DNA of 64,000 nucleotides from a phage. Position 1 is the first letter of the stretch; each line of letters opens with the position of its first letter. The DNA is taken from NCBI GenBank assembly GCA_012646185.1, contig GCA_012646185.1_4706.1; one strand, given 5' to 3'. A model generated the notes under the pieces. It ran no database searches and was not told where the DNA came from. It saw nothing but the letters and a program-made list of their open reading frames with translations. Of the stretch, positions 9,412 to 21,285 are shown piece after piece. Made by a program: the position numbers and the translations under genes.

Positions 9412-12321
9412 ATGAACGATATAAATAAAGGGCGCGTCGCCCTCGAACGTCAAATGAGCAATAATGACGTTGCGAAGGCACTCATGAACAAATTTGTCGC
9501 TCCTGCTCCGCAGTCACGTCTTTATAATACACGTGATGCGGAAGGAGCGAACGGTCGTTTCGGGTTAGTTGTTCCCGACCAAATGACGATGAACACGGTT
9601 ACGCGTGCGACCGCGACAAACATCGAGGATAATAAAAACATCCTCGAGTTGTTCCCTGAACTTAAACGCGTGATGCAGATCTATGTTGCCGCGTTGACGA
9701 ACCCTAACGATCTTAAGACGGTCGAGATGTTTATCGACAGCGAAGATTTCCCCGGCAGAGTCGCAGAAATCGTTCAGCCGATGATCGATACCATCGACAC
9801 GCATTTTAAGAATATCTATAAAATAAAGACGCTTATCCCTCGTATCATCGAAGACGTCTTCTTTATCAAGGGCAGTTATAACTTCGTTGTTCTGCCAGAA
9901 AGCACGCTCGACCGCGCGATTAATGGTAACGGTCAACTGAAACTTGAAGAATACGGATTTAAAGACAACCATTTTGCAAGTTGGGGGCTTCTAGGTAACG
10001 ACAGTCGCAAACGCCACGAAAATCAATTACCCGCGACGGTTTCGATGGAAGATTATTTCTCGGGTGTTAATGAAACCATACCGTACGATCCTGTTGTTCG
10101 CATAGACAGCATTAAGTTTACCAATACCCTGCTTCGCGATAAGGACGGTAAATTCATTGAAGCGAAGATCGATATTCCGGATATGGTTACGGTTGTCGAT
10201 AACCCAGACATCCTCCGCATGCCCATTCTGCATCAACGTCGAGCAGCGACAGCAGTGCAGCGTGCGTTACGCGCAAACACGTTAGGAGGTAGTGGTTTGG
10301 TAACGCTGTCAGGCGATCCGACCCTAACCGCTAACCGACGCGAGCTAACGCAAGAACAGGTTAACGAGATCTGGAATAAGCTCAACATCCAACGTCACAC
10401 TAAGGTATCTCCCGTTTACGCGTTGGCGACTCCAGATACGCTTGATCGTCAAAGCGTCGGTCATCCTGGTGTGATGCACGTACCACCTGAGGCATTAGAA
10501 CCCGTACATGCGCCCGGTGATCCTGAGAACCATATCGGGTATTTGGTTCAGTTGGATGAGTTTGGTTATCCGGTGCGTTTGGTTGAAGATGCTGCATATT
10601 ACAAGCAGTTGGAAGGTCGGTTGTCGAAGATCACTGCAGATATCGCAGGCACGTCAAGCAACGGCATGGCGAGCGAGATGATTGGTGCGGCCAAGAACAT
10701 GATCCAAGGTACGTCATGTAATCAGGTAGACATGTCGGCCTTCGTATCGTCGTACGAATCGCTGATGCAACGTTACATCGTTGAACGTATTGTCAACGGT
10801 TATCTTGGCAGTGCGGTGGAGATCGGTGCGACATCATCGTTTTACCTATCGATGCTTGCCCGTAGCCTCGCTCACAAGCAGACCCGTGTTTTGTTTATTC
10901 CTCGAGAGATGGTGACTTACATCGCCTATGAATACAACAAATACGGTATCGGTCGTTCGCTGCTTGAAAGTACGAAGATGATCTCGTCGCAACGAGCCAT
11001 GCTCATGGTTCAAGAACTAATGGCGAAAATCAAAAGTTCGTTGAACTATACGACGTTAAGCGTAATGCTTGAAGACACCGACAGAAACCCGGTCGATACC
11101 GTCGAACAAGCACTGCATAGTTTCGCTCGTGTCTACCAGTCTGGTTTCCCGTTGGGTGAAACTAACCCGATGGATATCATCAACGCGTACGAACGAAGCT
11201 CGATTCGATTGAAGGTTGAGGGGAATAACCCACGCTTCCCGAAATTGAATACAGACGTCAGCGTTGAGCAGCGTAACTATCAGTCTCCTGATAATGAGCT
11301 GATGGATCGTTACCGTCGTGACCATTTCATGGGCTTGGGTGTGTCTCCGGAGATTATCGATACTTCCTACCAATCTGAATTCGCAGCTTCTGTGATTACA
11401 GCTAACGCGATGCAAGAGAAACAGTTCACGGTTTGTCGTGAGGTGATCACGAATGGATTATCGGACCACATCAAGAAATATACGGCATACAGTCCCGTGT
11501 TGTTGACGTCGTTACGAAACACGGTTCGTGCGAACATGTCTAAGCTCTCCCAGGCACAATTGAAGCAGCTTTTTGGTAGCGATTTCGAAAACGGTGTTAT
11601 CCGTAACGTTAACGCCTATCAGGAGATTGACGACCAATCAGCAACAATGGATCTGGATTACACTAAACCAGAAGTCCAGGAAGTTATTGCCGATGCTTAT
11701 GTGTCCATGTTCTTAAACAGCCTGCGTGTGCGTTTACCAGATAGCAATGCTCGTCGCCTTGAAGATCAGGTACGTGAATATAATCAGTACAAGGAAGCGA
11801 TTACTGCGCAACTTGATGATTATTTAACGCCTGATTACGTCATGGGTCTGGGTGGGGTTGATGAAACAACGCTGCAGATGATCCGCGCATGCATTATTGG
11901 TACCGCGATGCGTACGTGGGCAAAAGAGAACAACTTCAATCAGGAGCTGGCTGATCTCTTCAGTCTTGACGATAAGAAGAATGCCGTGCAAGATTGGAAA
12001 CGTATGTCCATGGAACATATTGAAGTCATGGGTAAATGCATGGGTGATTTTGCATTGTATATTCAGAATCTGACGAAGAAGATTGAAGAGAAGATGGGAG
12101 CTCAAGCACAGGACGGCAGCGTTTCATCTGACGGTTCGTGGTCATCCGATTCAAGTAGCGATACCGGTTCTTCTGATGACTTCGGTGGCGGTGACGATTT
12201 CGGAGATACTGATTTCGATACCGAAACGATGGAGGAAACCTCAACAGAAGAAACAACCACATCTGAGGATACGACGACCGACACAACGTCAGAAGACGAT
12301 ACTTCAGGTGGCGTTGTCTAA
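9412..12321 (+). CDS. large virion-type protein (969 aa) with acidic S/T/D-rich C-terminal tail; possibly portal (weak guess)
   Basis: ATG with AAGGAG ribosome-binding site 9 nt upstream; C-terminal ~70 aa low-complexity acidic tail; A-run and terminator hairpin downstream. Confidence 0.8.
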   Translation: MNDINKGRVALERQMSNNDVAKALMNKFVAPAPQSRLYNTRDAEGANGRFGLVVPDQMTMNTVTRATATNIEDNKNILELFPELKRVMQIYVAALTNPNDLKTVEMFIDSEDFPGRVAEIVQPMIDTIDTHFKNIYKIKTLIPRIIEDVFFIKGSYNFVVLPESTLDRAINGNGQLKLEEYGFKDNHFASWGLLGNDSRKRHENQLPATVSMEDYFSGVNETIPYDPVVRIDSIKFTNTLLRDKDGKFIEAKIDIPDMVTVVDNPDILRMPILHQRRAATAVQRALRANTLGGSGLVTLSGDPTLTANRRELTQEQVNEIWNKLNIQRHTKVSPVYALATPDTLDRQSVGHPGVMHVPPEALEPVHAPGDPENHIGYLVQLDEFGYPVRLVEDAAYYKQLEGRLSKITADIAGTSSNGMASEMIGAAKNMIQGTSCNQVDMSAFVSSYESLMQRYIVERIVNGYLGSAVEIGATSSFYLSMLARSLAHKQTRVLFIPREMVTYIAYEYNKYGIGRSLLESTKMISSQRAMLMVQELMAKIKSSLNYTTLSVMLEDTDRNPVDTVEQALHSFARVYQSGFPLGETNPMDIINAYERSSIRLKVEGNNPRFPKLNTDVSVEQRNYQSPDNELMDRYRRDHFMGLGVSPEIIDTSYQSEFAASVITANAMQEKQFTVCREVITNGLSDHIKKYTAYSPVLLTSLRNTVRANMSKLSQAQLKQLFGSDFENGVIRNVNAYQEIDDQSATMDLDYTKPEVQEVIADAYVSMFLNSLRVRLPDSNARRLEDQVREYNQYKEAITAQLDDYLTPDYVMGLGGVDETTLQMIRACIIGTAMRTWAKENNFNQELADLFSLDDKKNAVQDWKRMSMEHIEVMGKCMGDFALYIQNLTKKIEEKMGAQAQDGSVSSDGSWSSDSSSDTGSSDDFGGGDDFGDTDFDTETMEETSTEETTTSEDTTTDTTSEDDTSGGVV

Positions 12322-12406: not shown

Positions 12407-12682
12407 TTATCTCGAGGTTAACCACGATTCAATTGTGGTGAGGTTGCTTCGCAATACGCGCCAACTAGGGTGTGGTGGGATCACAGCACCTTGGTCGATT
12501 ACGGTTAGCTGAGCCTGGTACTTCTGTTTCATACGGGCTACCGTAGCGTTTACCGAAAGGAAAAGCTGGTAACGTTCGTACGCCGTCAGTACAGCATCCA
12601 TTTGGATTGCTTCGGTTGCTAAAACGATTTCGCGTAAGTCCTTTGCGTCCATCGGGACAGTAATGAGTTTATAATGACTCAT
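12407..12682 (-). CDS. hypothetical small protein (91 aa)
   Basis: ATG at 12680-12682 with AAGGAA ribosome-binding site; terminator immediately downstream. Confidence 0.7.
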   Translation of the reverse strand: MSHYKLITVPMDAKDLREIVLATEAIQMDAVLTAYERYQLFLSVNATVARMKQKYQAQLTVIDQGAVIPPHPSWRVLRSNLTTIESWLTSR

Positions 12683-12731: not shown

Positions 12732-15269
12732 TTACTGCTCTTCACGTTCCAGCAGATACTCGGAAGCGGTAATACCGTTTACCGTACGTACTGCTTTCAG
12801 ACGAGTATCATCGCTCAGAATTACAGTAACAGATTGCAGACCTTTTACTTTGGTTTCGAAGGTCTTGAACACCTGATCCAGCATACGAGCAATGCTTGGG
12901 TTGGTTGCAGCAGATGCGTGAGTGTAACCGCTCTGGTTCAGCTTCAGAATCTTGGCGTTGGTCGGTACGCGAACAACAACATGCGGACGCATCGCGAACA
13001 CGCTGTGATTGAACCAGTAAGCATCGTTGCTATCTTCGTCGGTAACGATGTCTGGATTAACACGCATATCCTCGATAGCCGCATCCGCCAAACGACGTTC
13101 GATTTCGTCAGCATCCAGAGAACCATCTTTCTCCAGTTCTGCACGATACTCACTCATGGCAACCAGATGACGTTCACGATTCGCTGCGGATTTTTCGTGA
13201 GCGGCTTTCAGGTAGTCATGCATGTTGTACAGTTCTGCCATGGAAAGACGAATGTTCCACTGACCTTCGCCGTCACGATTGCAGTAGAGACACTTCAGCA
13301 TGTTGACCCAGGTATAGTAGCAATTGGAGAATTCATCTTCAATGAACTTCTGGTCCATTTTAAGATCGTGAATCAGCCAACCGGACAGTTCTCCGATATC
13401 ATCAACGAAGCTAGAGATGGTGGTTTCAGAGAAGTTCTTCGGTACGATACGTTTGATCAGCTTGTTAACGTCTTTGGTCATGCTATCATTCAGGAAATGC
13501 CAGATACGCAGAGGAATGACATCTCGATACTGTTGCATGATCTGACGATAAGCTTTGATATCGTCGCTACGACCTTTATCAATAGACAACGCATCCAGGA
13601 ATTCATGGATTGCATCCAGCTCTTTGTCGGTATAGGTTCCCAGATAGGAATTGACGGTGGCCAGGAATGCTAATGCGTCGTTTTGGTTGACGTCGGTGTT
13701 GGTCTGCTGAATGATCGCTACTGAAGCTTTGGTTTCAGCATCCTCAACGCTTGACGCTGCGATCGCGTCGGTGACGGTAAACAGTTTCATTTCGCGCTGC
13801 TCACCGACAACGATTGGCTCACGCTGAACCGGCTTGTTAAGACTAACACGAACAACTTCTGCTTGCGCGATACGATCCAGTTTTGCCATTTCCTGCTCTG
13901 CCATACGACGAGCGGTTGGATCTGATTCAAGTTCGATGTATTCCACTTCTTCCTCCGTGAGGGATGTAATGTCAACAATGGTTTCATGAAGAATTCCGTT
14001 TTCGTCGATACGTGCTCGACGAGCGAAGTGCCTGAAGTCATACAACGTCGGCCAACGACTATTAGGTGCAAAGTCTTTGGCTTTCAGACGCATCTGCATA
14101 AATTCTTCATGTTGAACAACACGACCGTAACGCTTAGCATCTTCGGTCGCATCAATTGGATTAACGGTCTTTGTTGCCGTAGCGGAACGAGCCGTACGAA
14201 CCGGTTCAGGTTGAACGGGTTTCTGCTGCCCAGCCTTAACATGCCATTCTGGCTCTTCGTACTGCTCAGCAAATTGCTCAGCGGCTGCAAAGATATCGTT
14301 GATACCACCAATATCTCCTTCAGGATTTGTCGAGTAAATCCGTGGTTGTGGTGCCTCGTAACGCGGCGCTGTAGCAGCAGGTGCGTCATCAACGATAGGA
14401 TCGTCATCACCAACATCATACAAACGGTTGAACGCACAATCCTTCGAATCAATGTACGATGGCGTTTGTGGTTGGACAACCGTCGGCCGAGGTTGTGTGC
14501 CGTATCCTGGTGTTGTTGGAGCCATACCACGCATAACTGCTGGGTTAGGTTGGTATTGTGGTTGCGGGTAGGTTCCACCATACATGGCGTACGCAGGCTG
14601 TTGCGGTTGACCATACCCGTTGCTAACCATCGCACTTGCTTGCGGACCACGATAAGTCATCCCCATCTGCATCACCTGCTGCTTCAAACCACGTGACTTC
14701 TGAGCGATTTGCGCTAGGCTTCCGCTTTTATTCAGCTGCGTGTACTTGTTCGCGGCTTCCGGGTTAATGCGTGATAATTCAATCGCGCGATAATATTCCG
14801 GGTACTGATTCGGTTCAAAGAGCCACGTTACAAGATGATACAGCGCAACTGTGCTCACAGCAGCAGAGACGATCTGGTCGTCGGACGCGTTCTGTGGCAT
14901 CGGGTTGATGTAAGAGAACACGTTCCAACAACAGTCTTCAACAAGCGATTCCATCATCATATCGTTATTGGTATAACGTGCGACGAACTCGGTTTGTATT
15001 TTGTCTTGCTGAGCGAAGTCTTTCAGGACATTAAAGATGGCTTGACGGATTTTGACGATCGTCGCTTCTTGGGTGATGAAGTTATAGTTCTGCTGATATG
15101 AGGGTTGTTGGTATTGTGGTGGTTGATAGGCGTTATTCGGGTATGCGCCGTACGGCGATTGCTGATACTGTTGCTGACGAACCCGTTCAGCCGCATAATT
15201 AACCGTGCTCGTATAGGGGTTTTCGCTATAGCCCATTTGTTGATACATGTTGTTACTGCCATTATACAT
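12732..15269 (-). CDS. hypothetical protein (845 aa) with two Q/Y/P-rich low-complexity regions
   Basis: ATG at 15267-15269 with AAAGGA ribosome-binding site; N-terminal ~65 aa and residues ~190-270 are Q/Y/P/G-rich. Confidence 0.85.
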   Translation of the reverse strand: MYNGSNNMYQQMGYSENPYTSTVNYAAERVRQQQYQQSPYGAYPNNAYQPPQYQQPSYQQNYNFITQEATIVKIRQAIFNVLKDFAQQDKIQTEFVARYTNNDMMMESLVEDCCWNVFSYINPMPQNASDDQIVSAAVSTVALYHLVTWLFEPNQYPEYYRAIELSRINPEAANKYTQLNKSGSLAQIAQKSRGLKQQVMQMGMTYRGPQASAMVSNGYGQPQQPAYAMYGGTYPQPQYQPNPAVMRGMAPTTPGYGTQPRPTVVQPQTPSYIDSKDCAFNRLYDVGDDDPIVDDAPAATAPRYEAPQPRIYSTNPEGDIGGINDIFAAAEQFAEQYEEPEWHVKAGQQKPVQPEPVRTARSATATKTVNPIDATEDAKRYGRVVQHEEFMQMRLKAKDFAPNSRWPTLYDFRHFARRARIDENGILHETIVDITSLTEEEVEYIELESDPTARRMAEQEMAKLDRIAQAEVVRVSLNKPVQREPIVVGEQREMKLFTVTDAIAASSVEDAETKASVAIIQQTNTDVNQNDALAFLATVNSYLGTYTDKELDAIHEFLDALSIDKGRSDDIKAYRQIMQQYRDVIPLRIWHFLNDSMTKDVNKLIKRIVPKNFSETTISSFVDDIGELSGWLIHDLKMDQKFIEDEFSNCYYTWVNMLKCLYCNRDGEGQWNIRLSMAELYNMHDYLKAAHEKSAANRERHLVAMSEYRAELEKDGSLDADEIERRLADAAIEDMRVNPDIVTDEDSNDAYWFNHSVFAMRPHVVVRVPTNAKILKLNQSGYTHASAATNPSIARMLDQVFKTFETKVKGLQSVTVILSDDTRLKAVRTVNGITASEYLLEREEQ

Positions 15270-15303
15270 TTCTTACGATCCTTTTTATTTATTCGGTTAT
15301 GTG

Positions 15304-17100
15304 TCAATCGATTATGTCGTGATCGTTAATTTCTACAATTTCTTCATCGAATCGACCGACGTCTTTCTTCAAGCCTGCATTGGTTGCTGCAACGTCATTT
15401 GCAATTTGTGGGGTAATGATTAACCGACCGCGCTCATCGATAGGTGCGTACATACTGAACTTCTGACGTCCGGTTGGTTCGGAGTGTGGAAGATTCAGAT
15501 AGCTTGCACAGAACGGGATGGAACCACTAACCAAACGACTCTCGTCAGCCAATGCAGCACCGCCTGCGTTTTGGCTCTGGAGAACAACATGCGTGCTCAC
15601 TTTGAACAGCATGCAATCACCAGGTGACTGAATCGATGTTGCCACTTTCTCACGTTTATCACGATTGCTCTGGATATTGAGAATCGCTTCCGTTGCAACT
15701 TGATTTCGCAACGCCTTCTGTACATCGCGATTGGTCATCTCTTTACGGTTGTTCTGTCGTTTACCACGTTCTGTGGTTTTAAGATGGAACCCCAGTTTAA
15801 AGATGCTCTTACGCACATCCTCCATGACATATTCCAACACCATCAATTCCTTACCGAACATCGTCGTGGTGTCAACACGACTCATTTCGATAGTGACATT
15901 GTCAATCAGATACGCCATAAATTCATAGAAGTCGTCGCAAGGAATATTTTCCTGTTTGAACTTCTTCTGCTGAATTTCGTCAACGTAAAGATCGAGACTG
16001 TCGATGTGGTGGTTTACATCACGCAACAAACGCGCATCCGCATTGTTGTTATTAAAGATAATCAAACCGAGTAATGTACGCCAATGGTCTGGCGCATTCG
16101 CGAACTCTTCAACCGGATAGTCTTCCGGAAAACGATCGTAATAACGGTCGATGAGATACAAGAATGCACCGACAAGGCCAAGAACAATACGTTCCGTGCC
16201 TCCACGTCTTACAGCAATTTGAATATCAGGATGTTTGTAACGTACAGCGCTAGCGCTACGGCTTTTACCGCTTTTGCTGATACTAAAGCCTTTAGGAATA
16301 ACCCCCATGGTGCGATAGATTACCCATTGGTCACGCGGAAAATCACGTTCAGCAAGGTTCCGTCCGGTTACGGCTTCGACACCTGCAAAACGTCGGAAAC
16401 ACTCACCCACCCCGTACTTCGCAAAGAGATAGTGACCCAGTGTGGTTACGCTGGTGTGGTTGATGTTGTCACCGTTCACTTTACTTTGTTTAGTAAGATG
16501 ATAGATTTGCGACCAGGGTAATGACAGGTAATGACGATAATCGATACCGGTCGGTGTATCGTTGCTCAGGAACTGATACGGTGTACGTTTAACCGTGATT
16601 TTGTCACGCGGAAGCATGATGAACGCCATGTCTTTCGTGTAACTGATTACGGGGTCAGCGAGTACCGCACTGAGAATGAAGTTCGCACCACGTAGACGCA
16701 TTTTACCACCCTGACCTACCGCGGGTAATAGGAGAGGATGTCGGATAATGCAGTAGTCCTTTCCGGGTTCACGACGGTCACCTGATTCCATCGCGCCGTA
16801 CCAGCGGAATTCTAGCATCACCATAAACACATCGGAAGGCGCAAGGTCGAAGGTCAGCTTACCGCTATCCTTCCCTTTGGTTTTCTTTCCTCCGCTTAAG
16901 TAGTGGAACTGTTCGCGGGCCATACAGCGACGCAGGCCATGATACACCAGATCCTTAGGTAAACTATCTTTGCTGTTCCGCCAAAGACGATCAACATAGG
17001 ACTCAACATCTTGCATCTTATCGACGACGATGTTGCGTGCTATCTTCTCGTTCATCTTCGGTGCAAGCTCAGCGACAGCTTTGCAGAATCTAGGATCCAT
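15304..17100 (-). CDS. hypothetical protein (~598 aa), start moved to ATG at 17098-17100
   Basis: Track start GTG at 17103; adjacent ATG has AAAGGAG ribosome-binding site 6 nt upstream. Confidence 0.8.
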   Translation of the reverse strand: MDPRFCKAVAELAPKMNEKIARNIVVDKMQDVESYVDRLWRNSKDSLPKDLVYHGLRRCMAREQFHYLSGGKKTKGKDSGKLTFDLAPSDVFMVMLEFRWYGAMESGDRREPGKDYCIIRHPLLLPAVGQGGKMRLRGANFILSAVLADPVISYTKDMAFIMLPRDKITVKRTPYQFLSNDTPTGIDYRHYLSLPWSQIYHLTKQSKVNGDNINHTSVTTLGHYLFAKYGVGECFRRFAGVEAVTGRNLAERDFPRDQWVIYRTMGVIPKGFSISKSGKSRSASAVRYKHPDIQIAVRRGGTERIVLGLVGAFLYLIDRYYDRFPEDYPVEEFANAPDHWRTLLGLIIFNNNNADARLLRDVNHHIDSLDLYVDEIQQKKFKQENIPCDDFYEFMAYLIDNVTIEMSRVDTTTMFGKELMVLEYVMEDVRKSIFKLGFHLKTTERGKRQNNRKEMTNRDVQKALRNQVATEAILNIQSNRDKREKVATSIQSPGDCMLFKVSTHVVLQSQNAGGAALADESRLVSGSIPFCASYLNLPHSEPTGRQKFSMYAPIDERGRLIITPQIANDVAATNAGLKKDVGRFDEEIVEINDHDIID

Positions 17101-17139
17101 CACACACTCCTTTCAGAAAGTTGCTTAAGCAGATTAAAG

Positions 17140-18576
17140 TTACTTTTTCGATGACGCCTTTTCAAGAATCTTGAAAAAGGTCATACCTATACCGACAACG
17201 GCCGCGGTTATGCTCGCAGCGGCTTTCCAAACATCGACGTTACGTTGACGTCGCGCTTCTTCCGCTTCACGTTGTCTTTTTGCCTCTTCATCACGTCGAC
17301 GTATCTCAGCAGCAAACTCGTCGTGCTTACGTTTGGCTTCTTCGTCTCGACGACGAAGTTCAGCGACGAATTCTTCATGTTTGCGTTTAGCCTCGTCATC
17401 ACGACGTTTTAAATCAGCTTGATAATCTTCGTGTATTTGTTTACGTAGATCATCTTGACGCTTCATTTCGGCTTGGTGTTGTTCCATCCTACGTTTTTGT
17501 TCGTCTTTAAGCTGATCGAGTTCGGCTTTATGTTGTTCATCGCGCAGCTTTGCGTCGGCGCGATGCGCCTCATGCATCTGTGCGATAACTGCCTTGTGTT
17601 CATCCGCCATACGCCGCATTTCAGCCATCACCCCTTTAAGGGTTTCTTCTGATGCCTTACGTTCGTAGCTACGCTGGTCGAAATCATTTTTGTAGGCTTC
17701 TTTTTGGATGGGGTCGCGCCAATGCAATGCCGATTCACGTGTCGGAAAAACATTGTACTTCCACATCTCTTTTTCCAAATCTTCGACCGGTACGAAGATG
17801 GAGTCATTATTCCCGAAGGTAACCAACATACCTGGCGCGCCTGCTCCATTCGTTGGTTTTATTTCGAACGCTTTCCCCAGCACGTTAACCCATAAGCTAT
17901 ACGGATTATGAAAGTCGGGTGGCGTCCAATGGATAGTGAGTTGCGTTCCGAGAATCCGGAAACCCTCTGTTTTTCCCGTCAAGCTCCGCGCGCACGTTGC
18001 GATGTAGGGGTGATCAATCCCTTTCGTAACGTGGTCTGCGCTTTTGTATTCTCCTTTAACTTTTACGATTGCCACGTTGATTTGCGCGACATAAGCAGGT
18101 TGATTAAAGTTCAGCGTGTTGAGGTCAATTTGACATATTTCATCCAGCGTATCGTACCAGTCTTGCTGGTCTAATAGACGCGGCATTTTCTCAGCGTTAA
18201 CAATACGACGGATATGCGGTTTCCTTATCGCGTAACCTGTGCCGTTTTTAACACGGAGTATATCCCGACGTCTACCCGCGTAGACGAAGTTTCTGAATGC
18301 ACCATTCGCATTAGATACGTCATGGCTGTCAACTATTACAGGACTACGAAATTTTGAACGTCGTACGATCCTGAATGTATTGCCGTCCTCAACCCTACCA
18401 GGAATGTACTGGAACATATTGTCGGAGGTGATAACCAACACGGTATGGCCAGATTCATTAATACATGCCCATCCTAATTCCAGGTCATATAACGGTTCAG
18501 CATAACCGTCAATGCGATAAGCGTGCGTACCATCCCACGGTTCGAACGCGGTATCACATATTGGCATGGAGGGCAT
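17140..18576 (-). CDS. hypothetical protein (~478 aa): globular N-domain, E/R/K-rich repeat helix, C-terminal transmembrane anchor
   Basis: Start moved to ATG at 18574-18576 (GGAGG, 6-nt spacer); three 19-aa repeats LRRRDEEAKRKHEEFVAE; hydrophobic AAASITAAVVGIGMTFF followed by KILEKASSKK at the C-terminus. Confidence 0.8.
   Translation of the reverse strand: MPSMPICDTAFEPWDGTHAYRIDGYAEPLYDLELGWACINESGHTVLVITSDNMFQYIPGRVEDGNTFRIVRRSKFRSPVIVDSHDVSNANGAFRNFVYAGRRRDILRVKNGTGYAIRKPHIRRIVNAEKMPRLLDQQDWYDTLDEICQIDLNTLNFNQPAYVAQINVAIVKVKGEYKSADHVTKGIDHPYIATCARSLTGKTEGFRILGTQLTIHWTPPDFHNPYSLWVNVLGKAFEIKPTNGAGAPGMLVTFGNNDSIFVPVEDLEKEMWKYNVFPTRESALHWRDPIQKEAYKNDFDQRSYERKASEETLKGVMAEMRRMADEHKAVIAQMHEAHRADAKLRDEQHKAELDQLKDEQKRRMEQHQAEMKRQDDLRKQIHEDYQADLKRRDDEAKRKHEEFVAELRRRDEEAKRKHDEFAAEIRRRDEEAKRQREAEEARRQRNVDVWKAAASITAAVVGIGMTFFKILEKASSKK
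17255..17425 (-). repeat. tandem ~57-bp in-frame repeats encoding the E/R/K-rich helix
   Basis: Repeated cgacg...gcgac...ttcttc...tttgcgttt units visible on the plus strand; bounds approximate. Confidence 0.5.
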
Positions 18577-18726
18577 CGTCAACCTCCATCTGATTGAAAA
18601 CTATCACGCATAATGCATTTCCCTTTTCTTGTTCTTATCGAGCCGACAGCCGACGGTTTCAGCATCGTTCCTAGCGCGAGAACGACCTTACGTGTTGTCT
18701 ATGCCTTATTCATCGCAGGCGTCTGT

Positions 18727-18814: not shown

Positions 18815-18913
18815 CTGACTTATGTATCACGGTGCCGGATGAATGTCCGGTGCAATGAAACCATCCGCAACGTTGTCGTCAAGAATATCGTCCAACGAAG
18901 CAGCTACGGTAGT

Positions 18914-21136
18914 TCAGTTAGTCTGAACCGGCAGCTTGATGTTTTCAGTGTAGACCTTACGCAGGTTCACAACGTTAATCAGACCCAGCAGCGGGCAGTT
19001 GTTAACGAAGCGGCAGCGCGGCTGAACCATGGTTTCTTTAGAAACCTGACCGTTACGGGTAACCTGAGCAACAGATACCAGTTCCGGTACATACAGGAAC
19101 ATACCGAAGGTCAGCGGATCCGGAGAACCCTGGATACCACGAGACAGGGTCACGAAGATCTTATCGCGCAGCATGACGTTCGGGTTATCTACAACCACGA
19201 AGTTGAAGCTTACACCAACGGTACGGAAATCGCCATCGGTCTGCAGGAACTGCGGGATGTAGTTGTCAGTTGCTACTACGCAACGCGGTTTCTCATCAGC
19301 GTTGGAAGACAGCAGCTGCAGAGCTGGCTGATAACCAGACTCGGAGTACATGCGGTATGCCATCTCACGAATCACGTTCATGATCGCAGCAGACACTTCA
19401 GCACGACGTTCTGCAGTGGTGGTACCCTGAACAGATTTCTCCAGGTCCAGATTGATTTCTTCGAACCACGGACGGATCAGGTAACGACCGAAACCTTCGA
19501 TCTGGATGTCGCCGAACTGACGGAAGCGAGAGGTCGCAACCGCTTTCAGTGCGTCTTTGTAGCTGAACAGTTTCTCAACCATCAGGTTGTCGAAACGTGC
19601 GTTAGCAGCTTGGATCAGAACGTCCAGGTCAGCAGCGTTTTCTTCCCAATCCAGCGGACGAGGAATGGAGAACGGAGCCAGCAGGCCGATTGCGTAACGT
19701 TCTTGCTTCATGTTGAAGTCAAGGTGCTTACCGCGCTCACGACGGTTGCTGTTGTTACGGCGGATACGCAGTTCGTAACCAACCAGTTTGAAGCTCAGGT
19801 CTTCAGCCAGCTGTTTGAACTCTTCGCCCTTACGCGGTTGTTCGATGTTGTCACGATCGACCAGACGATACAGTTCAGCGTTAGCGCCGTTAACACGCAG
19901 ACCGGCTTTCTCTACGTTGGAAGAACCGTAAACTTCGATTGCCAGCTGAGCAGCGGATTTCGAATCGATGATGTCCTGCAGCGCTTCAGCTCGTGCACCT
20001 TTAACGTCAACGGTGTTCTCATCAACGAAGATGGAGTGGGTGTCGAACGCCAGGGTCATTTTGCGGAAGTCGCCTTCCAGGGATTTCTGGAAACCGTTGG
20101 TGATCAGACCAGATACGTCGAACGGTACGTAAGAGGTTTTGCTGTGCTTGGTAGATTTGATTTCCACCAGGATTTTGGTCAGCGTGATCTGGGCGTCCAG
20201 CGCGTCGGTGTTGTCGCTGTAACCGTTAGCCAGGATGCTATCGTCTTCAGCGATACCGATCATGTCGATCAGTTTATCAACAGCCAGGTAAGACGTTTTA
20301 TAAGTTACGCCTTTAATTTCGATGTCGCGCGGAGCAACGATAGCTTTGTCAACGAAGTACTGTGCGTTAGCATCGTCAGCACGATAGATCGGATGCAGAT
20401 CGGTCACGTCGTTGGACAGAACGTCGTTGTACATGAACGCATCCAGCAGCGGACGACGTACCCAATCAGCCGGAGTACCGTCAGCGTTACGACGCAGGTG
20501 GTTGAACACCAGCGGACGACGGAAAGATACGTCGTAACCGATCTGGTTCGGAGCCAGAACGATGGTGTTGTACAGTTCGTTACCCATGCGGCTCAGACGA
20601 GAAGCCTTCACGTTGAACACAACGGAGTACGGCATCATGTCACGCAGTTCTTTCTGGTCGTAGGACAGCTGAACCAGTTCTTCAGATTCGCAACCGCAGG
20701 AATCAGCAGCCATCATGACGAAGTTAGAGCTGTCAACTTCACGGCCAGACGGAGTGGTGCTGATGTTCATGGAACGTGCTTGTTTAGCATATTCCACCGG
20801 GTTACCATGAGCCAGCATGATCAGTGCTGCTGCACGAGCCTGCTGTGCGTTCATGGTGAACAGCTGTTCTTCAATACGCTGCTTCTCTTCCGGAGTGGTG
20901 GTTTCGAAGCCCAGCATGGACAGAACCGGTTCTTCGGCTTTACGGATGTCGCTGCTGAAGCTCTTAACATCCATTTCGTTAACCAGTTTGTCCATGGATT
21001 TGAAATCAACCTTAGAAGCAGATTCCATAGACAGGAAGGTGTTCTCCAGACCTTTGTCTGCTGGTTTGCTACCATTAGCGGTCAGGAACTGGCGAGTGGC
21101 CGCGACCTGTTGGCTAAGAAGGGTTTTATCATTCAT
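18914..21136 (-). CDS. putative major capsid protein (740 aa)
   Basis: ATG at 21134-21136 with AAAGGA ribosome-binding site; length close to the ~750-aa capsid proteins of phiKZ-like phages (recollection, not verified); strong host-like codon bias; own terminator. Confidence 0.55.
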   Translation of the reverse strand: MNDKTLLSQQVAATRQFLTANGSKPADKGLENTFLSMESASKVDFKSMDKLVNEMDVKSFSSDIRKAEEPVLSMLGFETTTPEEKQRIEEQLFTMNAQQARAAALIMLAHGNPVEYAKQARSMNISTTPSGREVDSSNFVMMAADSCGCESEELVQLSYDQKELRDMMPYSVVFNVKASRLSRMGNELYNTIVLAPNQIGYDVSFRRPLVFNHLRRNADGTPADWVRRPLLDAFMYNDVLSNDVTDLHPIYRADDANAQYFVDKAIVAPRDIEIKGVTYKTSYLAVDKLIDMIGIAEDDSILANGYSDNTDALDAQITLTKILVEIKSTKHSKTSYVPFDVSGLITNGFQKSLEGDFRKMTLAFDTHSIFVDENTVDVKGARAEALQDIIDSKSAAQLAIEVYGSSNVEKAGLRVNGANAELYRLVDRDNIEQPRKGEEFKQLAEDLSFKLVGYELRIRRNNSNRRERGKHLDFNMKQERYAIGLLAPFSIPRPLDWEENAADLDVLIQAANARFDNLMVEKLFSYKDALKAVATSRFRQFGDIQIEGFGRYLIRPWFEEINLDLEKSVQGTTTAERRAEVSAAIMNVIREMAYRMYSESGYQPALQLLSSNADEKPRCVVATDNYIPQFLQTDGDFRTVGVSFNFVVVDNPNVMLRDKIFVTLSRGIQGSPDPLTFGMFLYVPELVSVAQVTRNGQVSKETMVQPRCRFVNNCPLLGLINVVNLRKVYTENIKLPVQTN

Positions 21137-21285
21137 TGAAAGTATCCTTTACAGAATTAACTTATATAAGTCGGTCGATAGACCATAGCGTACACGCGTG
21201 CATGCGCCACTATAGTATCAGTAAACACTTACCGTTATTGAGGTCGTGATACAACACTAAAAATGCCGCATAACTTTTCCCTACG

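What the first reader, a model, noticed from the sequence alone, without database searches (positions are those of the whole stretch)
12732..15269. Phage protein with Q/Y/P-rich prion-like low-complexity regions
The N-terminal ~65 aa (MYNGSNNMYQQMGYSENPYTS...QPPQYQQPSYQQNYNF) and a second ~80-aa segment (GYGQPQQPAYAMYGGTYPQPQYQPNP...) resemble phase-separating SYGQ-type domains. This is unusual for a phage protein and notable in a likely nucleus-forming phage lineage.
Basis: seen in the sequence. Interest (0 to 1): 0.55.

Follow-up and report, generated by a model that had tools for sequence, protein, structure and literature searches.

The report
Tyrosine-rich disordered arms on Goslar JADA
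The flagged gene is the E. coli jumbo-phage (Goslar-type) version of JADA, an essential early protein of nucleus-forming phages whose function is still unknown. Its two Gln/Tyr/Pro-rich stretches are real, conserved, probably floppy arms, and whether they make droplets is plausible but untested.

Summary
ORF 12732-15269(-) encodes 845 aa with two uncharged Q/Y/P/N/G-rich segments (aa 1-64 and about 206-272). They are the most extreme such segments in the window and in the whole Goslar genome.

The protein is not an orphan. It is Goslar gp038 (98.5% identical) and the divergent orthologue of JADA (phiKZ gp124 / Pa36 gp316; Mol Cell 2026; PDB 9RP3). It sits directly downstream of the nvRNAP subunit gene, as in 20 other chimallivirus loci. 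Its C-terminal domain matches the family profile (hhalign 99.2%, E 3.7e-19).

The second segment is the start of JADA's known disordered inter-domain linker. The first is a Goslar-lineage N-terminal extension.

New here:
- Polar low-complexity arms recur across the family (17 of 22 orthologues versus 22 of 134 neighbouring ORFs).
- The Goslar clade is the tyrosine-rich extreme.
- The arms are under purifying selection (dN/dS 0.09-0.18) with nearly invariant Tyr, Gln and Pro.

Phase separation is plausible, because ChmC of the same phage family does it through an N/G-rich tail, but it is untested. Amyloid, collagen-like, FG-like and SSB-tail readings are rejected. Verdict: a new variant of a known kind, of moderate interest.

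The parts
12732..15269 (-). Complete CDS (845 aa plus stop) of the Goslar gp038 / JADA orthologue
   Evidence: ORF list. It is 98.5% aa identical to Goslar HOV27_gp038.
15279..15283 (-). Shine-Dalgarno-like AAGGA, 9 nt before the ATG at 15269
   Evidence: Read directly from the sequence.
15078..15269 (-). N-terminal low-complexity segment, aa 1-64 (Q/Y/N/P-rich, 13 aromatic residues). It is a Goslar-lineage extension that is absent from the sister lineage P0005.
   Evidence: Composition. Conservation of 10/12 Tyr, 12/13 Gln and 5/6 Pro in 11 relatives. dN/dS 0.12-0.18. AF2 pLDDT 29-39.
14655..15077 (-). N-terminal helical domain, aa 65-205
   Evidence: AF2 predicts a helical bundle with pLDDT 55-75. 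The composition is like the rest of the proteome. Sequence homology to other JADA N-terminal domains was not detected.
14454..14654 (-). Second low-complexity segment, aa 206-272 (P/Q/Y/G-rich, no acidic residues). It is the first part of the inter-domain linker.
   Evidence: In 11 relatives 8/8 Tyr, 12/13 Pro and 9/10 Gln are invariant. dN/dS 0.08-0.09. AF2 pLDDT 22-30. It has the same position as the disordered linker of JADA.
14130..14453 (-). Acidic, proline-rich second part of the linker, aa 273-380 (aa 273-345: 17 D/E versus 5 K/R). It contains the recombination breakpoint seen in relative P0003.
14385..14420 (-). Conserved acidic motif YDVGDDDPIVDD (aa 284-295). P0005 has FDYDEDDVIG and phiKZ gp124 has AAYDVPGSSPF at the equivalent place.
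   Evidence: Alignments.
14244..14303 (-). Conserved acidic helix INDIFAAAEQFAEQYEEPEW (aa 323-342) inside the linker
   Evidence: Invariant in the clade and recognisable in P0005. A helix is predicted at aa 323-336.
12735..14129 (-). C-terminal domain, aa 381-845, homologous to the ring-forming, Avs5-activating C-terminal domain of JADA (PDB 9RP3)
   Evidence: hhalign of the Goslar clade against 19 positional orthologues including phiKZ gp124: probability 99.15%, E 3.7e-19, 334 columns, aa 407-849. phiKZ gp124 matches 9rp3_A over its whole length (1666 bits). 9RP3 is the only or top hit in PDB sequence and fold searches, though weak. BFVD fold hits to Eowyn gp146 and similar proteins reach E down to 2.7e-8.
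13374..13514 (-). Best-conserved family motif, aa 586-632 (P..RIW.FLNDSMTKDVN...TISSFVDDIGEL..WL). It holds the near-invariant Asn602 and the T598, I618, F621 and D624 columns.
   Evidence: BLASTP to Eowyn gp146 (E 4e-5) and phiKZ gp124 (E 4e-4) in this stretch. Invariant columns.
15304..17103 (-). Upstream, co-directional gene for the non-virion RNA polymerase subunit (phiKZ gp123 orthologue). Its adjacency defines the JADA locus. The gap is 34 nt, with no terminator-like site on this strand.
   Evidence: phrog_2943 'polymerase', E 7e-120. Synteny in 20 loci. Terminator scan.

Best explanation
The ORF is the Goslar-lineage orthologue of JADA (phiKZ gp124 / Pa36 gp316). JADA is an essential, abundant, early protein of nucleus-forming jumbo phages. 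It gathers at the early-infection (EPI) vesicle, and its knock-down disturbs phage transcription and chimallin production.

The protein is built as [Tyr/Gln/Asn/Pro arm, aa 1-64] - [helical N-domain, 65-205] - [Pro/Gln/Tyr/Gly arm, 206-272, followed by an acidic proline-rich stretch, 273-380] - [C-terminal domain, 381-845, which in JADA forms a ring-shaped dimer].

The two flagged segments are therefore a lineage-specific N-terminal extension and the first part of the family's flexible inter-domain linker.

My preferred mechanism is that the segments are intrinsically disordered 'sticker-and-spacer' arms, about 21 aromatic residues per chain and about 42 per dimer. They would give this abundant dimer weak, multivalent self- and hetero-association. 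That would help it concentrate into the foci seen at the EPI vesicle, where early phage mRNAs are translated and the nucleus is seeded. The acidic stretch behind the linker would temper that stickiness, as in ChmC.

Shown here: identity, locus, architecture, composition, conservation. Taken from papers on orthologues: early expression, essentiality, foci, dimer, invisible linker. Inferred: disorder of these particular segments, and above all their role in self-association or condensation.
For: Identity:
- 98.5% identical to Goslar gp038.
- Same gene order, DnaB - small ORF - capsid protein - hypothetical - nvRNAP subunit - [this gene] ... portal-like gene, in 20 chimallivirus loci including phiKZ, 201phi2-1, PCH45 and a RAY-like phage.
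- C-terminal domain profile-profile match: 99.15%, E 3.7e-19.
- A family HMM built without the Goslar clade finds P0005 at 3e-19 and P0004 at 7e-6, while 600 shuffled decoys score 40 or worse.
- PDB 9RP3 is the only sequence-profile hit and the top fold hit. BFVD fold hits are all 660-870-aa jumbo-phage proteins of this position.

Segments:
- Extreme composition.
- No tandem DNA repeats, so not a recent slippage product.
- dN/dS 0.09-0.18, as low as the folded domains.
- Tyr, Gln and Pro are nearly invariant while Ser, Thr, Ala and Asn vary; the one Tyr change is to Phe; an insertion in one subclade adds two more Tyr.
- AF2 pLDDT is 22-39 in the segments versus 55-78 in parts of the domains.
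- The equivalent region of JADA gave no cryo-EM density.

Family:
- 17 of 22 positional orthologues carry at least 30 aa of uncharged polar low complexity (median 95 aa), versus 22 of 134 other ORFs of at least 200 aa in the same loci.

Precedent:
- The same genome-wide scan ranks ChmC (gp176) second. Its N/G-rich tail plus acidic cluster is required for RNA condensates and for Goslar titre.

Biology of orthologues.
Against: - No experiment or dedicated predictor (PLAAC, IUPred, catGRANULE) was available, so disorder rests on low AF2 confidence in an overall poor model (mean pLDDT 43.5) and on analogy.
- mScarlet-JADA of the phiKZ type is diffuse in uninfected cells and forms foci only on infection. 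The family does not self-condense on its own at those levels, and recruitment may be by a specific partner.
- Five of 22 orthologues (RSF1, FBKp24, PCH45, Ea277G, BUCT660) have no low-complexity segment by my criterion, and most have few tyrosines. So a Tyr-driven mechanism cannot be the conserved core function.
- The JADA C-terminal domain alone carries the Avs5-activating and toxic activity.
- Homology of the N-terminal domain to other JADA N-domains was not detected.
- Direct Goslar-to-phiKZ sequence similarity is weak (E 4e-4 pairwise; E 1.2 profile against PDB).
Confidence: 0.6

Rival explanations
1. Passive spacer. The segments are merely flexible, protease-tolerant tethers that set the reach between the N-domain and the C-terminal ring. 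Their Q/Y/P composition has no role in self-association and no condensate forms.
For: - Linker length and composition vary widely between orthologues, and five lack low complexity altogether.
- phiKZ-type JADA is diffuse without infection.
- The JADA authors needed only 'disordered or flexible region' to describe it.
Against: - A pure spacer should tolerate substitutions, yet dN/dS is 0.08-0.18 at dS of about 1, and Tyr, Gln and Pro are specifically invariant while spacer residues vary.
- An N-terminal extension has nothing to tether.
- Low complexity is strongly enriched in this gene relative to its neighbours.
Confidence: 0.25
2. Specific docking region. The conserved residues are short linear motifs that bind a defined host or phage partner, for example replisome or division proteins, nvRNAP subunits, ribosomes or chimallin. 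The motifs would be GYGQPQQP, YDVGDDDP and the acidic helix 323-342. The low-complexity look would be incidental.
For: - Near-complete sequence conservation of aa 206-345 within the clade, with recognisable YD[VY] and acidic-helix motifs in P0005 and phiKZ gp124.
- A secondary citation says phiKZ gp124 was pulled down with host DnaX/FtsZ complexes (PMC11849849 citing Van den Bossche 2014).
- GWGQPQQP plus an acidic DDD motif recalls the E. coli SSB tail (from memory).
Against: - The primary interaction paper could not be read.
- The SSB tip must be the free C-terminus, whereas here the acidic motif is internal.
- The N-terminal segment is absent from the sister lineage P0005, so any motif there is recent.
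- This reading does not exclude multivalent stickiness.
Confidence: 0.15
3. True prion or amyloid former. The Q/N/Y-rich N-terminus converts into a self-propagating cross-beta aggregate.
For: Composition is closest to Sup35N.
Against: - Proline occurs every 5-12 residues (6 in 64 aa, 13 in 67 aa), which disfavours cross-beta cores.
- The segments are short (64-77 aa).
- An essential, abundant early protein in a lytic cycle of tens of minutes has no obvious use for heritable aggregation.
- No experimental support.
Confidence: 0.03
4. Ordered fibrous or repeat structure (collagen-like, beta-helical fibre), as in the first reader's own refutation scenario.
For: Pro, Gly and Gln richness.
Against: - No Gly-X-Y or other periodicity, and no tandem repeats in the DNA.
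- Gly is only 5-12%.
- The protein is not a virion or tail component by position.
- AF2 gives coil with pLDDT 22-39.
- The orthologous region is invisible by cryo-EM.
Confidence: 0.02

Closest known systems
[quoted passage not shown]
   Same: - Locus directly downstream of, and co-directional with, the nvRNAP subunit gene.
- Chimallivirus genome.
- Size class (656-911 aa in 21 of the 22 orthologues compared; EarlPhillipIV is 516 aa).
- N-domain, long disordered linker, large C-terminal domain.
- C-terminal domain homologous by profile-profile comparison.
- Linker uncharged, Q/P/G-rich, followed by an acidic stretch.
   Different: - Only about 16% identical to phiKZ gp124, and not found by the single-sequence or PHROG searches that define the published family. 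Goslar is not mentioned in the paper.
- Extra 64-aa Tyr/Gln/Asn/Pro N-terminal extension.
- Linker is tyrosine-rich (12% in aa 206-272, or 9% over the 77-aa sliding-criterion segment, versus 4% in the 77-aa phiKZ segment).
- A roughly 90-aa helical insertion in the C-terminal domain (about aa 665-750) relative to the other orthologues.
- N-domain homology not demonstrable.
- Early expression, dimer ring, EPI-vesicle foci and Avs5 activation are untested for this protein.
ChmC (Goslar gp176 / PhiPA3 gp61), nucleus-associated RNA-binding protein with an N/G-rich disordered tail (Enustun et al., NAR 2024, PMC11077065)
   Same: - Same phage family.
- Early, abundant, and encoded beside nvRNAP subunit genes.
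- Oligomeric folded core carrying an uncharged polar low-complexity segment followed by an acidic cluster.
- It is the second-ranked low-complexity ORF in my Goslar-wide scan.
   Different: - No sequence or fold relationship.
- ChmC's segment is Asn/Gly-rich with few aromatics, C-terminal and about 40 aa. Here there are two Tyr/Gln/Pro-rich segments of about 65-75 aa.
- ChmC's condensates with RNA are demonstrated; nothing is demonstrated here.
- RNA binding is not known for JADA.
Eukaryotic and yeast prion-like low-complexity domains (FUS SYGQ domain, Sup35 N domain)
   Same: - Q/N/Y/G/S/P-dominated composition with almost no charged or aliphatic residues.
- Aromatic residues every 5 or so positions.
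- About 20 aromatic 'stickers' per chain.
   Different: - Much shorter (64 and 67 aa versus 120-215 aa).
- Richer in proline and poorer in serine and glycine than FUS.
- Bacteriophage context, with no RNA-recognition domains attached.
- Behaviour untested.
E. coli SSB intrinsically disordered linker plus acidic tip
   Same: - Gly/Gln/Pro-rich uncharged linker containing the identical hexapeptide GQPQQP.
- An Asp-rich motif (DDDP versus DDDIPF) follows the linker.
   Different: - The acidic motif is internal, followed by 550 residues, so it cannot present the free C-terminal Phe carboxylate that SSB partners bind.
- Tyrosine-rich.
- No OB fold.
- The resemblance is recalled from memory and is within what low complexity gives by chance.

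Membership tests
JADA / phiKZ gp124 family | [quoted passage not shown] | tested here: met
   nvRNAP subunit at 15304-17103(-), E 7e-120 to phrog_2943. The gap is 34 nt. There is no terminator-like site on that strand. The arrangement is identical in 20 loci.
JADA / phiKZ gp124 family | Encoded by a Chimalliviridae genome | tested here: met
   96.4% nt identity to Goslar. PhiKZ_MCP PF25620 E 4.5e-216. The Goslar record carries nuclear shell protein and PhuZ genes.
JADA / phiKZ gp124 family | C-terminal domain homologous to that solved in PDB 9RP3 | tested here: met
   hhalign 99.15%, E 3.7e-19, 334 columns against an alignment that includes phiKZ gp124, which matches 9rp3_A over its whole length (1666 bits). 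Direct evidence is weaker but points the same way: BLASTP E 4e-4, the only PDB profile hit at E 1.2, and the top two Foldseek PDB hits at probability 1.00/0.99 but E 0.13.
JADA / phiKZ gp124 family | Tripartite build: folded N-domain, about 100-aa disordered linker, large C-domain | tested here: met
   AF2: helical aa 60-170 with pLDDT 55-75; aa 200-320 coil with pLDDT 22-30; C-terminal helices and strands with pLDDT up to 78. The model is poor overall, so this is supportive rather than strong.
JADA / phiKZ gp124 family | N-terminal domain homologous to the JADA N-domain | tested here: inconclusive
   hhalign of aa 60-210 against the first 230 aa of 19 orthologues: probability 0.3%. Only the position and helical character agree.
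JADA / phiKZ gp124 family | C-domain forms a closed ring-like homodimer | not testable with these tools
   No multimer prediction was available, and the monomer model is too poor.
JADA / phiKZ gp124 family | Early, abundant and essential; forms foci at EPI vesicles; activates Avs5 | not testable with these tools
   Known only for phiKZ and Pa36. No Goslar gp038 data were found in the searched literature.
Prion-like / SYGQ-type low-complexity domain | Composition dominated by Q, N, Y, G, S (and P), with few charged or aliphatic residues | tested here: met
   68-77% Q+N+Y+P+G+S and at most 10% charged. Jensen-Shannon divergence to Sup35N is 0.083 and to the FUS domain 0.145, versus 0.196 to the phage proteome.
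Prion-like / SYGQ-type low-complexity domain | Evenly spaced aromatic stickers | tested here: met
   N-terminal segment: 13 aromatics with gaps of 2-10. Second segment: 8 aromatics with gaps of 3-17. The aromatics are invariant or Tyr-to-Phe in relatives.
Prion-like / SYGQ-type low-complexity domain | Intrinsic disorder | tested here: inconclusive
   Low AF2 confidence and an invisible orthologous linker. No disorder predictor or experiment was available.
Prion-like / SYGQ-type low-complexity domain | Passes a trained predictor (PLAAC core of at least 60 aa, PAPA) | not tested
   The tools are not installed. Segment lengths of 64-78 aa are just above the PLAAC core length.
Prion-like / SYGQ-type low-complexity domain | Phase separation or self-templating aggregation | not testable with these tools
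   Needs purified protein or live-cell imaging.
SSB C-terminal tail mimic | Acidic tip at the free C-terminus (…DDDIPF-COOH) | tested here: not met
   YDVGDDDPIVDD is at aa 284-295 of 845.
Collagen-like / fibrous repeat | Gly-X-Y or other strict periodic repeat | tested here: not met
   No tandem repeats in 14200-15300. Gly is 5-12%.
FG-nucleoporin-like selective phase | Phe-Gly repeats in an uncharged spacer | tested here: not met
   One Phe in aa 1-64 and none in aa 206-272. The stickers are Tyr.

The most novel reading that the evidence does not exclude
JADA's unknown essential function is scaffolding. Its dimeric ring, carrying four uncharged sticky arms, would condense into a membraneless coat or hub on the EPI vesicle. 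That hub would concentrate nascent early proteins (chimallin, nvRNAP subunits) and possibly co-condense with ChmC and mRNA, bridging the vesicle stage to nucleus assembly. The Goslar lineage, with a bona fide Tyr-rich prion-like extension, would be the strongest former. Such a hub would be a new, phage-encoded prion-like-domain organiser of an early viral factory in bacteria, and the exposed, abundant hub would explain why Avs5 watches this protein.
Probability: 0.15. Interest if true: 0.75.

Novelty: new variant of a known kind. Interest (0 to 1): 0.45.

Why it matters
JADA is essential, among the most abundant early proteins, and the trigger of a bacterial immune sensor, yet a 2026 review still lists it as 'of unknown function'.

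Three things follow from this analysis:
1. The family reaches the E. coli model phage Goslar, where dCas13d knock-down and complementation already work. This contradicts its listing as 'non-core' in the phiKZ antisense screen and gives a tractable system.
2. The family's 'flexible region' is a selected, uncharged, sticker-bearing low-complexity element, and it recurs in most lineages. That turns a structural footnote into a testable hypothesis about how JADA gathers at the EPI vesicle.
3. The Goslar clade supplies a natural extreme, with 20 aromatics in the arms plus an extra N-terminal arm, for deletion and Tyr-to-Ser experiments.

If the arms prove inert, the finding reduces to the annotation of one more divergent JADA orthologue.

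Tried and rejected
- Pfam gave only sub-threshold hits (Cas9_C_2 at 18.4 bits, DUF4186 at 17.9 bits, both below cut-off). I rejected them as noise. PHROGs gave nothing for this protein.
- tblastn of the phage collection, the 5.8-billion-protein word search and the exhaustive 1.84-billion-protein HMMER search found only the Goslar clade plus one 34%-identical sister, P0005.
- Two further word-indexed searches with family alignments failed. With the full-length alignment only the four close Goslar-clade proteins returned, probably because low-complexity words filled the 8,000-candidate list. With the C-domain alignment only two FBKp24-like proteins returned.
- phmmer of the protein against PDB sequences found no relevant hit.
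- AF2 with 5 and then 8 sequences gave poor models (pLDDT 35 and 43.5). No confident C-domain model could therefore be superposed on 9RP3.
- N-domain homology was not detected.
- The SSB-tail mimicry idea was dropped because the acidic motif is internal.
- Collagen-like, fibre and FG-repeat readings were rejected.
- Recent slippage origin was rejected, since there are no DNA tandem repeats.
- The primary source for 'phiKZ gp124 binds DnaX/FtsZ' (PMID 25185497) is not held, so that claim stays second-hand.
- No Goslar gp38 data were found in the literature searches or in the ChmC paper's supplements.
- The sigma-70 promoter scan found fewer sites than shuffled sequence gives (6 versus a mean of 9.0), and phage promoters are of another type.
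Full report

Yes. The six-frame ORF list gives an 845-aa ORF at 12732-15269 on the minus strand, with an ATG start. An AAGGA ribosome-binding site lies 9 nt upstream.

Residues 1-64 read MYNGSNNMYQQMGYSENPYTS...QPPQYQQPSYQQNYNF, as quoted. They are Q 20%, Y 19%, N 14%, P 9%, with two basic and two acidic residues.

A second segment, aa 206-272 (192-268 by a sliding criterion), is P 19%, Q 15%, Y 12%, G 12%, with no acidic residue.

The best 60-aa window is 77% Q+N+Y+P+G+S. The next of 40 long ORFs in the window reaches 50%, and the background is 28%. The binomial P is about 2e-11 per window.

I rebuilt the whole Goslar genome from five fetched pieces. In it the orthologous ORF ranks first of 517 ORFs. 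It is the only one with at least 7 Tyr and at least 12 Gln/Asn in 50 aa.

**2. What genome and what gene?**

The region is 96.4% identical in DNA to Escherichia phage vB_EcoM_Goslar, a nucleus-forming chimallivirus. The window carries a PhiKZ-type major capsid protein (PF25620, E 4.5e-216).

The protein is 98.5% identical to Goslar gp038, annotated 'hypothetical protein'.

By sequence it looks like an orphan:
- tblastn of 50,697 phage records found only Goslar.
- A 5.8-billion-protein word search found four proteins at least 79% identical.
- An exhaustive HMMER scan of 1.84 billion representatives added only one 774-aa sister (P0005, 34% identical, E 4.5e-108) and a fragment.
- IMG/VR and metagenome scans added only members 79-98% identical.

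**3. Synteny breaks the orphan status.**

The upstream gene (15304-17103, same strand) is the non-virion RNA polymerase subunit orthologous to phiKZ gp123 (phrog_2943, E 7e-120).

I fetched the neighbourhood of this polymerase gene in 19 diverse chimalliviruses: phiKZ, phiHQ, 201phi2-1, Noxifer, an EL-like phage, Eowyn, FBKp24, Miami, PCH45, BUCT660, Simmy50 (RAY-like), Ea277G, EarlPhillipIV, RP12, RSF1, FLC9, Aphrodite1, Yong MS32 and PS1. I also fetched the contig of P0005.

The order is always the same: capsid protein - hypothetical - nvRNAP subunit - a large hypothetical (656-911 aa in 19 of the 20; 516 aa in EarlPhillipIV). In the ten loci that extend far enough, an opposite-strand gene annotated as a virion-structural or portal protein, or of matching size (about 930-970 aa), follows. 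In phiKZ the protein at this position is gp124.

**4. Homology.**

Pairwise BLASTP already aligns the same motif:
- aa 578-632 with Eowyn gp146 residues 590-642, E 4e-5.
- aa 588-677 with phiKZ gp124 residues 554-636, E 4e-4.

Eowyn and RP12 proteins hit the phiKZ gp124 PHROG (phrog_15010) weakly in that region.

Stronger evidence comes from profiles:
- A profile-profile comparison of the Goslar-clade alignment with an alignment of the 19 positional orthologues gives probability 99.15%, E 3.7e-19, over 334 columns (aa 407-849).
- An HMM built only from the 19 outsiders finds P0005 at 3e-19 and P0004 at 7e-6 (Z = 1e5), while 600 shuffled decoys score 40 or worse. The window sequence itself scores only E 1.8.
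- phmmer links P0005 to 201phi2-1 gp204 at 1e-3 with Z = 1e5.

phiKZ gp124 in turn matches PDB chain 9rp3_A, 'Gp316/JADA', over its whole 721 aa (1666 bits).

Direct tests against the PDB are weak but point the same way:
- The Goslar-clade profile has a single hit among 177,635 sequences, 9rp3_A, at E 1.2 and on the same motif.
- A poor AF2 model has 9rp3_B and 9rp3_A as its top two Foldseek hits among 350,542 chains (probability 1.00/0.99, but E 0.13/0.29 over 85 columns).
- Against BFVD, the seven hits with E of 1e-3 or better are 663-874-aa proteins.

The N-terminal domain could not be linked by sequence (hhalign probability 0.3%).

**5. What is known about the family?**

Muralidharan et al. 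(bioRxiv 2025; Mol Cell 2026, PMC12931631) named Pa36 gp316 'JADA'. According to that paper:
- It is the trigger of the Avs5 (Sir2-STAND) defence.
- phiKZ gp124 is its orthologue.
[quoted passage not shown] - The C-domain forms a ring-like dimer with a novel fold (2.1 A cryo-EM). No density was seen for the N-terminal part.
- The C-domain alone activates Avs5 and is toxic.
- An mScarlet fusion is diffuse before infection and forms foci at EPI vesicles on infection.

An antisense screen (Nature 2025, PMC12571901) found that phiKZ124 knock-down lowers plaque yield and chimallin level and strongly perturbs phage transcription at 30 min. That paper lists the gene as 'non-core'.

A 2026 review still calls JADA 'of unknown function'.

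None of these papers mentions a Goslar orthologue, low complexity or condensates.

**6. Where do the flagged segments sit?**

Mapped on this architecture:
- aa 1-64 is an N-terminal extension in front of a helical N-domain (aa 65-205; AF2 pLDDT 55-75).
- aa 206-272 opens the inter-domain linker.
- The linker continues as an acidic, proline-rich stretch. In aa 273-345 there are 17 D/E versus 5 K/R.
- That stretch holds a conserved YDVGDDDPIVDD motif and a conserved acidic helix (aa 323-342).
- The C-domain begins at about aa 381.

AF2 gives coil with pLDDT 29-39 and 22-30 for the two segments. The model is poor overall (mean 43.5), so this is supportive only.

**7. Are the segments selected or drifting?**

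No tandem repeats underlie them.

I used the DNA of Goslar and of two metagenomic relatives for Nei-Gojobori estimates, window versus P0004, at dS 0.8-1.4:

| Region | dN/dS |
|---|---|
| N-terminal segment (aa 1-64) | 0.175 |
| N-domain (aa 65-205) | 0.130 |
| Second segment (aa 206-272) | 0.093 |
| Acidic linker (aa 273-380) | 0.149 |
| C-domain (aa 381-845) | 0.098 |

So the low-complexity parts are as constrained as the folded ones.

Among 11 distinct clade members:
- Tyr is invariant at 10/12 and 8/8 positions in the two segments, and one of the two changes is to Phe.
- Gln is invariant at 12/13 and 9/10 positions.
- Pro is invariant at 5/6 and 12/13 positions.
- Ser, Thr, Ala and Asn vary: N 5/9, S 2/5 and A 2/4 in the first segment; A 4/6, T 2/6 and N 0/2 in the second.
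- One subclade carries an insertion (QQPPYQPQQP plus GGG) that adds two tyrosines.

This is the pattern expected of stickers and spacers, though the sampling is shallow.

The sister lineage P0005 lacks the Tyr-rich N-extension and keeps only GY...QPQQP of the linker. The tyrosine-rich state is therefore an innovation of the Goslar genus.

**8. Is low complexity a family trait?**

I used one fixed criterion: 30-aa windows with at least 55% Q/N/Y/P/G/S and at most 13% charged residues.
- 17 of 22 positional orthologues carry at least 30 such residues (median 95). The segments lie in the linker, at the N-terminus, or both.
- Only 22 of 134 other ORFs of at least 200 aa in the same loci do, and mostly with barely 30-40 residues.

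Composition differs by lineage:

| Orthologue | Low-complexity composition |
|---|---|
| phiKZ | Gly/Gln/Pro/Met |
| RAY-like (Simmy50) | Gln/Met |
| PS1, EarlPhillipIV | Asn/Gly |
| Eowyn | 156 aa of Gln/Pro/Tyr |

Aromatic content of the segments is highest in the Goslar clade (20), followed by FLC9 (19), Simmy50 (18) and Eowyn (16). Five orthologues have none.

An acidic stretch after the linker is present in the Goslar clade (net -11/-12), phiKZ-like phages (-7/-8), and Eowyn and P0005 (-4), but not elsewhere.

**9. Precedent in the same phages.**

The genome-wide scan ranks Goslar gp176 second. This is ChmC. Its N/G-rich disordered tail followed by an acidic cluster is required for condensates with RNA in vitro. 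A tail deletion cannot rescue Goslar titre after knock-down (NAR 2024, PMC11077065).

ChmC, like JADA, is early, abundant and encoded beside nvRNAP subunit genes. A condensate-forming low-complexity tail in a chimallivirus is thus not new in kind. What is new is that a second essential early protein carries a different, tyrosine-based version.

**10. Mechanism and rivals.**

My best reading is this. The ORF is the Goslar JADA, which I put at about 0.9. The segments are disordered arms, at about 0.8. They would provide weak multivalent self- or hetero-association that helps the abundant dimer collect at the EPI vesicle, at about 0.3 for true condensation.

Evidence against this reading:
- The phiKZ-type protein is diffuse without infection.
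- Several orthologues lack such segments.
- The C-domain alone carries the known activities.

The main rivals are a passive spacer and specific docking motifs.
- The passive spacer is disfavoured by the residue-specific conservation and by the existence of an N-terminal arm with nothing to tether.
- Docking motifs are compatible with the near-invariant aa 206-345.

Other readings:
- A true amyloid prion is unlikely because proline occurs every 5-12 residues.
- Collagen-like, fibre and FG-repeat readings fail on periodicity and composition.
- SSB-tail mimicry fails because the acidic motif is internal.

**11. Caveats.**

- The low-complexity criterion is my own heuristic, not PLAAC.
- The 134 control ORFs include some spurious antisense ORFs.
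- dN/dS rests on two or three divergent sequences.
- AF2 models are poor because only eight admissible sequences could be supplied.

**12. Verdict.**

The object is a new, tyrosine-rich variant of a recently described family (JADA). The low-complexity arms appear to be a selected family feature that has not been discussed in print. Interest is moderate (0.45). It would rise sharply if the arms prove necessary for focus formation or infection.

Noticed in passing
window 17140-18582 (-), especially about 17140-17600: This is the Goslar gp040 orthologue, at the position of phiKZ gp122, whose knock-down also disturbs phage transcription. It ends in about 100 aa of highly charged near-repeats (RRRDEEAKRKH(E/D)EF(V/A)AE(L/I), three copies). 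A 20-aa hydrophobic stretch (AAASITAAVVGIGMTFFKIL) and a lysine-rich end follow, which looks like a coiled-coil with a C-terminal membrane anchor. That is intriguing for a phage that starts infection in a lipid vesicle.
   Followed up: partly
window 12094-12318 (+), C-terminus of ORF 9412-12321: The portal-like virion protein (phrog_3004) ends in a roughly 70-aa Ser/Asp/Thr/Glu-rich acidic low-complexity tail (…SSDGSWSSDSSSDTGSSDDFGGGDDFGDTDFDTETMEETSTEETTTSEDTTTDTTSEDDTSGGVV).
   Followed up: no
L023:3001-5592 versus L022:3001-5592 and window 12732-15269: The gene of relative P0003 is a mosaic. Its N-terminal half is nearly identical to P0004 (dS 0.09-0.25). Its C-domain is nearly identical to the window (dS 0.09), while the reciprocal comparisons have dS 0.9-1.3. 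The breakpoint falls in the acidic linker (aa 273-380), so the domains are exchanged as modules through the disordered region.
   Followed up: partly
window 14210/14211 (between aa 353 and 354): The window's protein lacks a 7-aa unit (PEPAQVK, or PETVKVK in the P0004-like members). All 10 other close clade members have it, within a PEP-x-x-x-K-PEP direct repeat. It looks like a small slippage deletion unique to this phage.
   Followed up: partly
L035:15932-16720 (Goslar gp176, outside the window): ChmC is the second most polar low-complexity ORF in the whole Goslar genome by the same scan that ranks gp038 first. Its Asn/Gly-rich tail is the experimentally proven condensate driver, which serves as an unplanned positive control for the scan.
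   Followed up: yes
window 18839-21139 (+): A 766-aa open frame runs antisense across the entire major capsid gene (18914-21136, minus). It is probably a by-product of codon usage rather than a gene.
   Followed up: no
L007:2926-5394 (Simmy50 / RAY-like JADA orthologue), aa 1-49: The N-terminal segment is 29% Gln and 22% Met. Methionine is also 8-12% of the low-complexity segments in phiKZ (10% in its linker segment), Aphrodite1 and Miami, and 9% in the window's own linker segment. Met-rich low-complexity regions are known elsewhere as redox-sensitive stickers (from memory). This was not examined further.
   Followed up: no
window 12407-12682 (-): A 91-aa ORF directly downstream (Goslar gp037) is conserved in position and length in the Goslar clade, and as 110 aa in the P0005 contig. 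Small ORFs also follow JADA in most other loci (phiKZ gp125 at 210 aa, for example). No family match was found.
   Followed up: no
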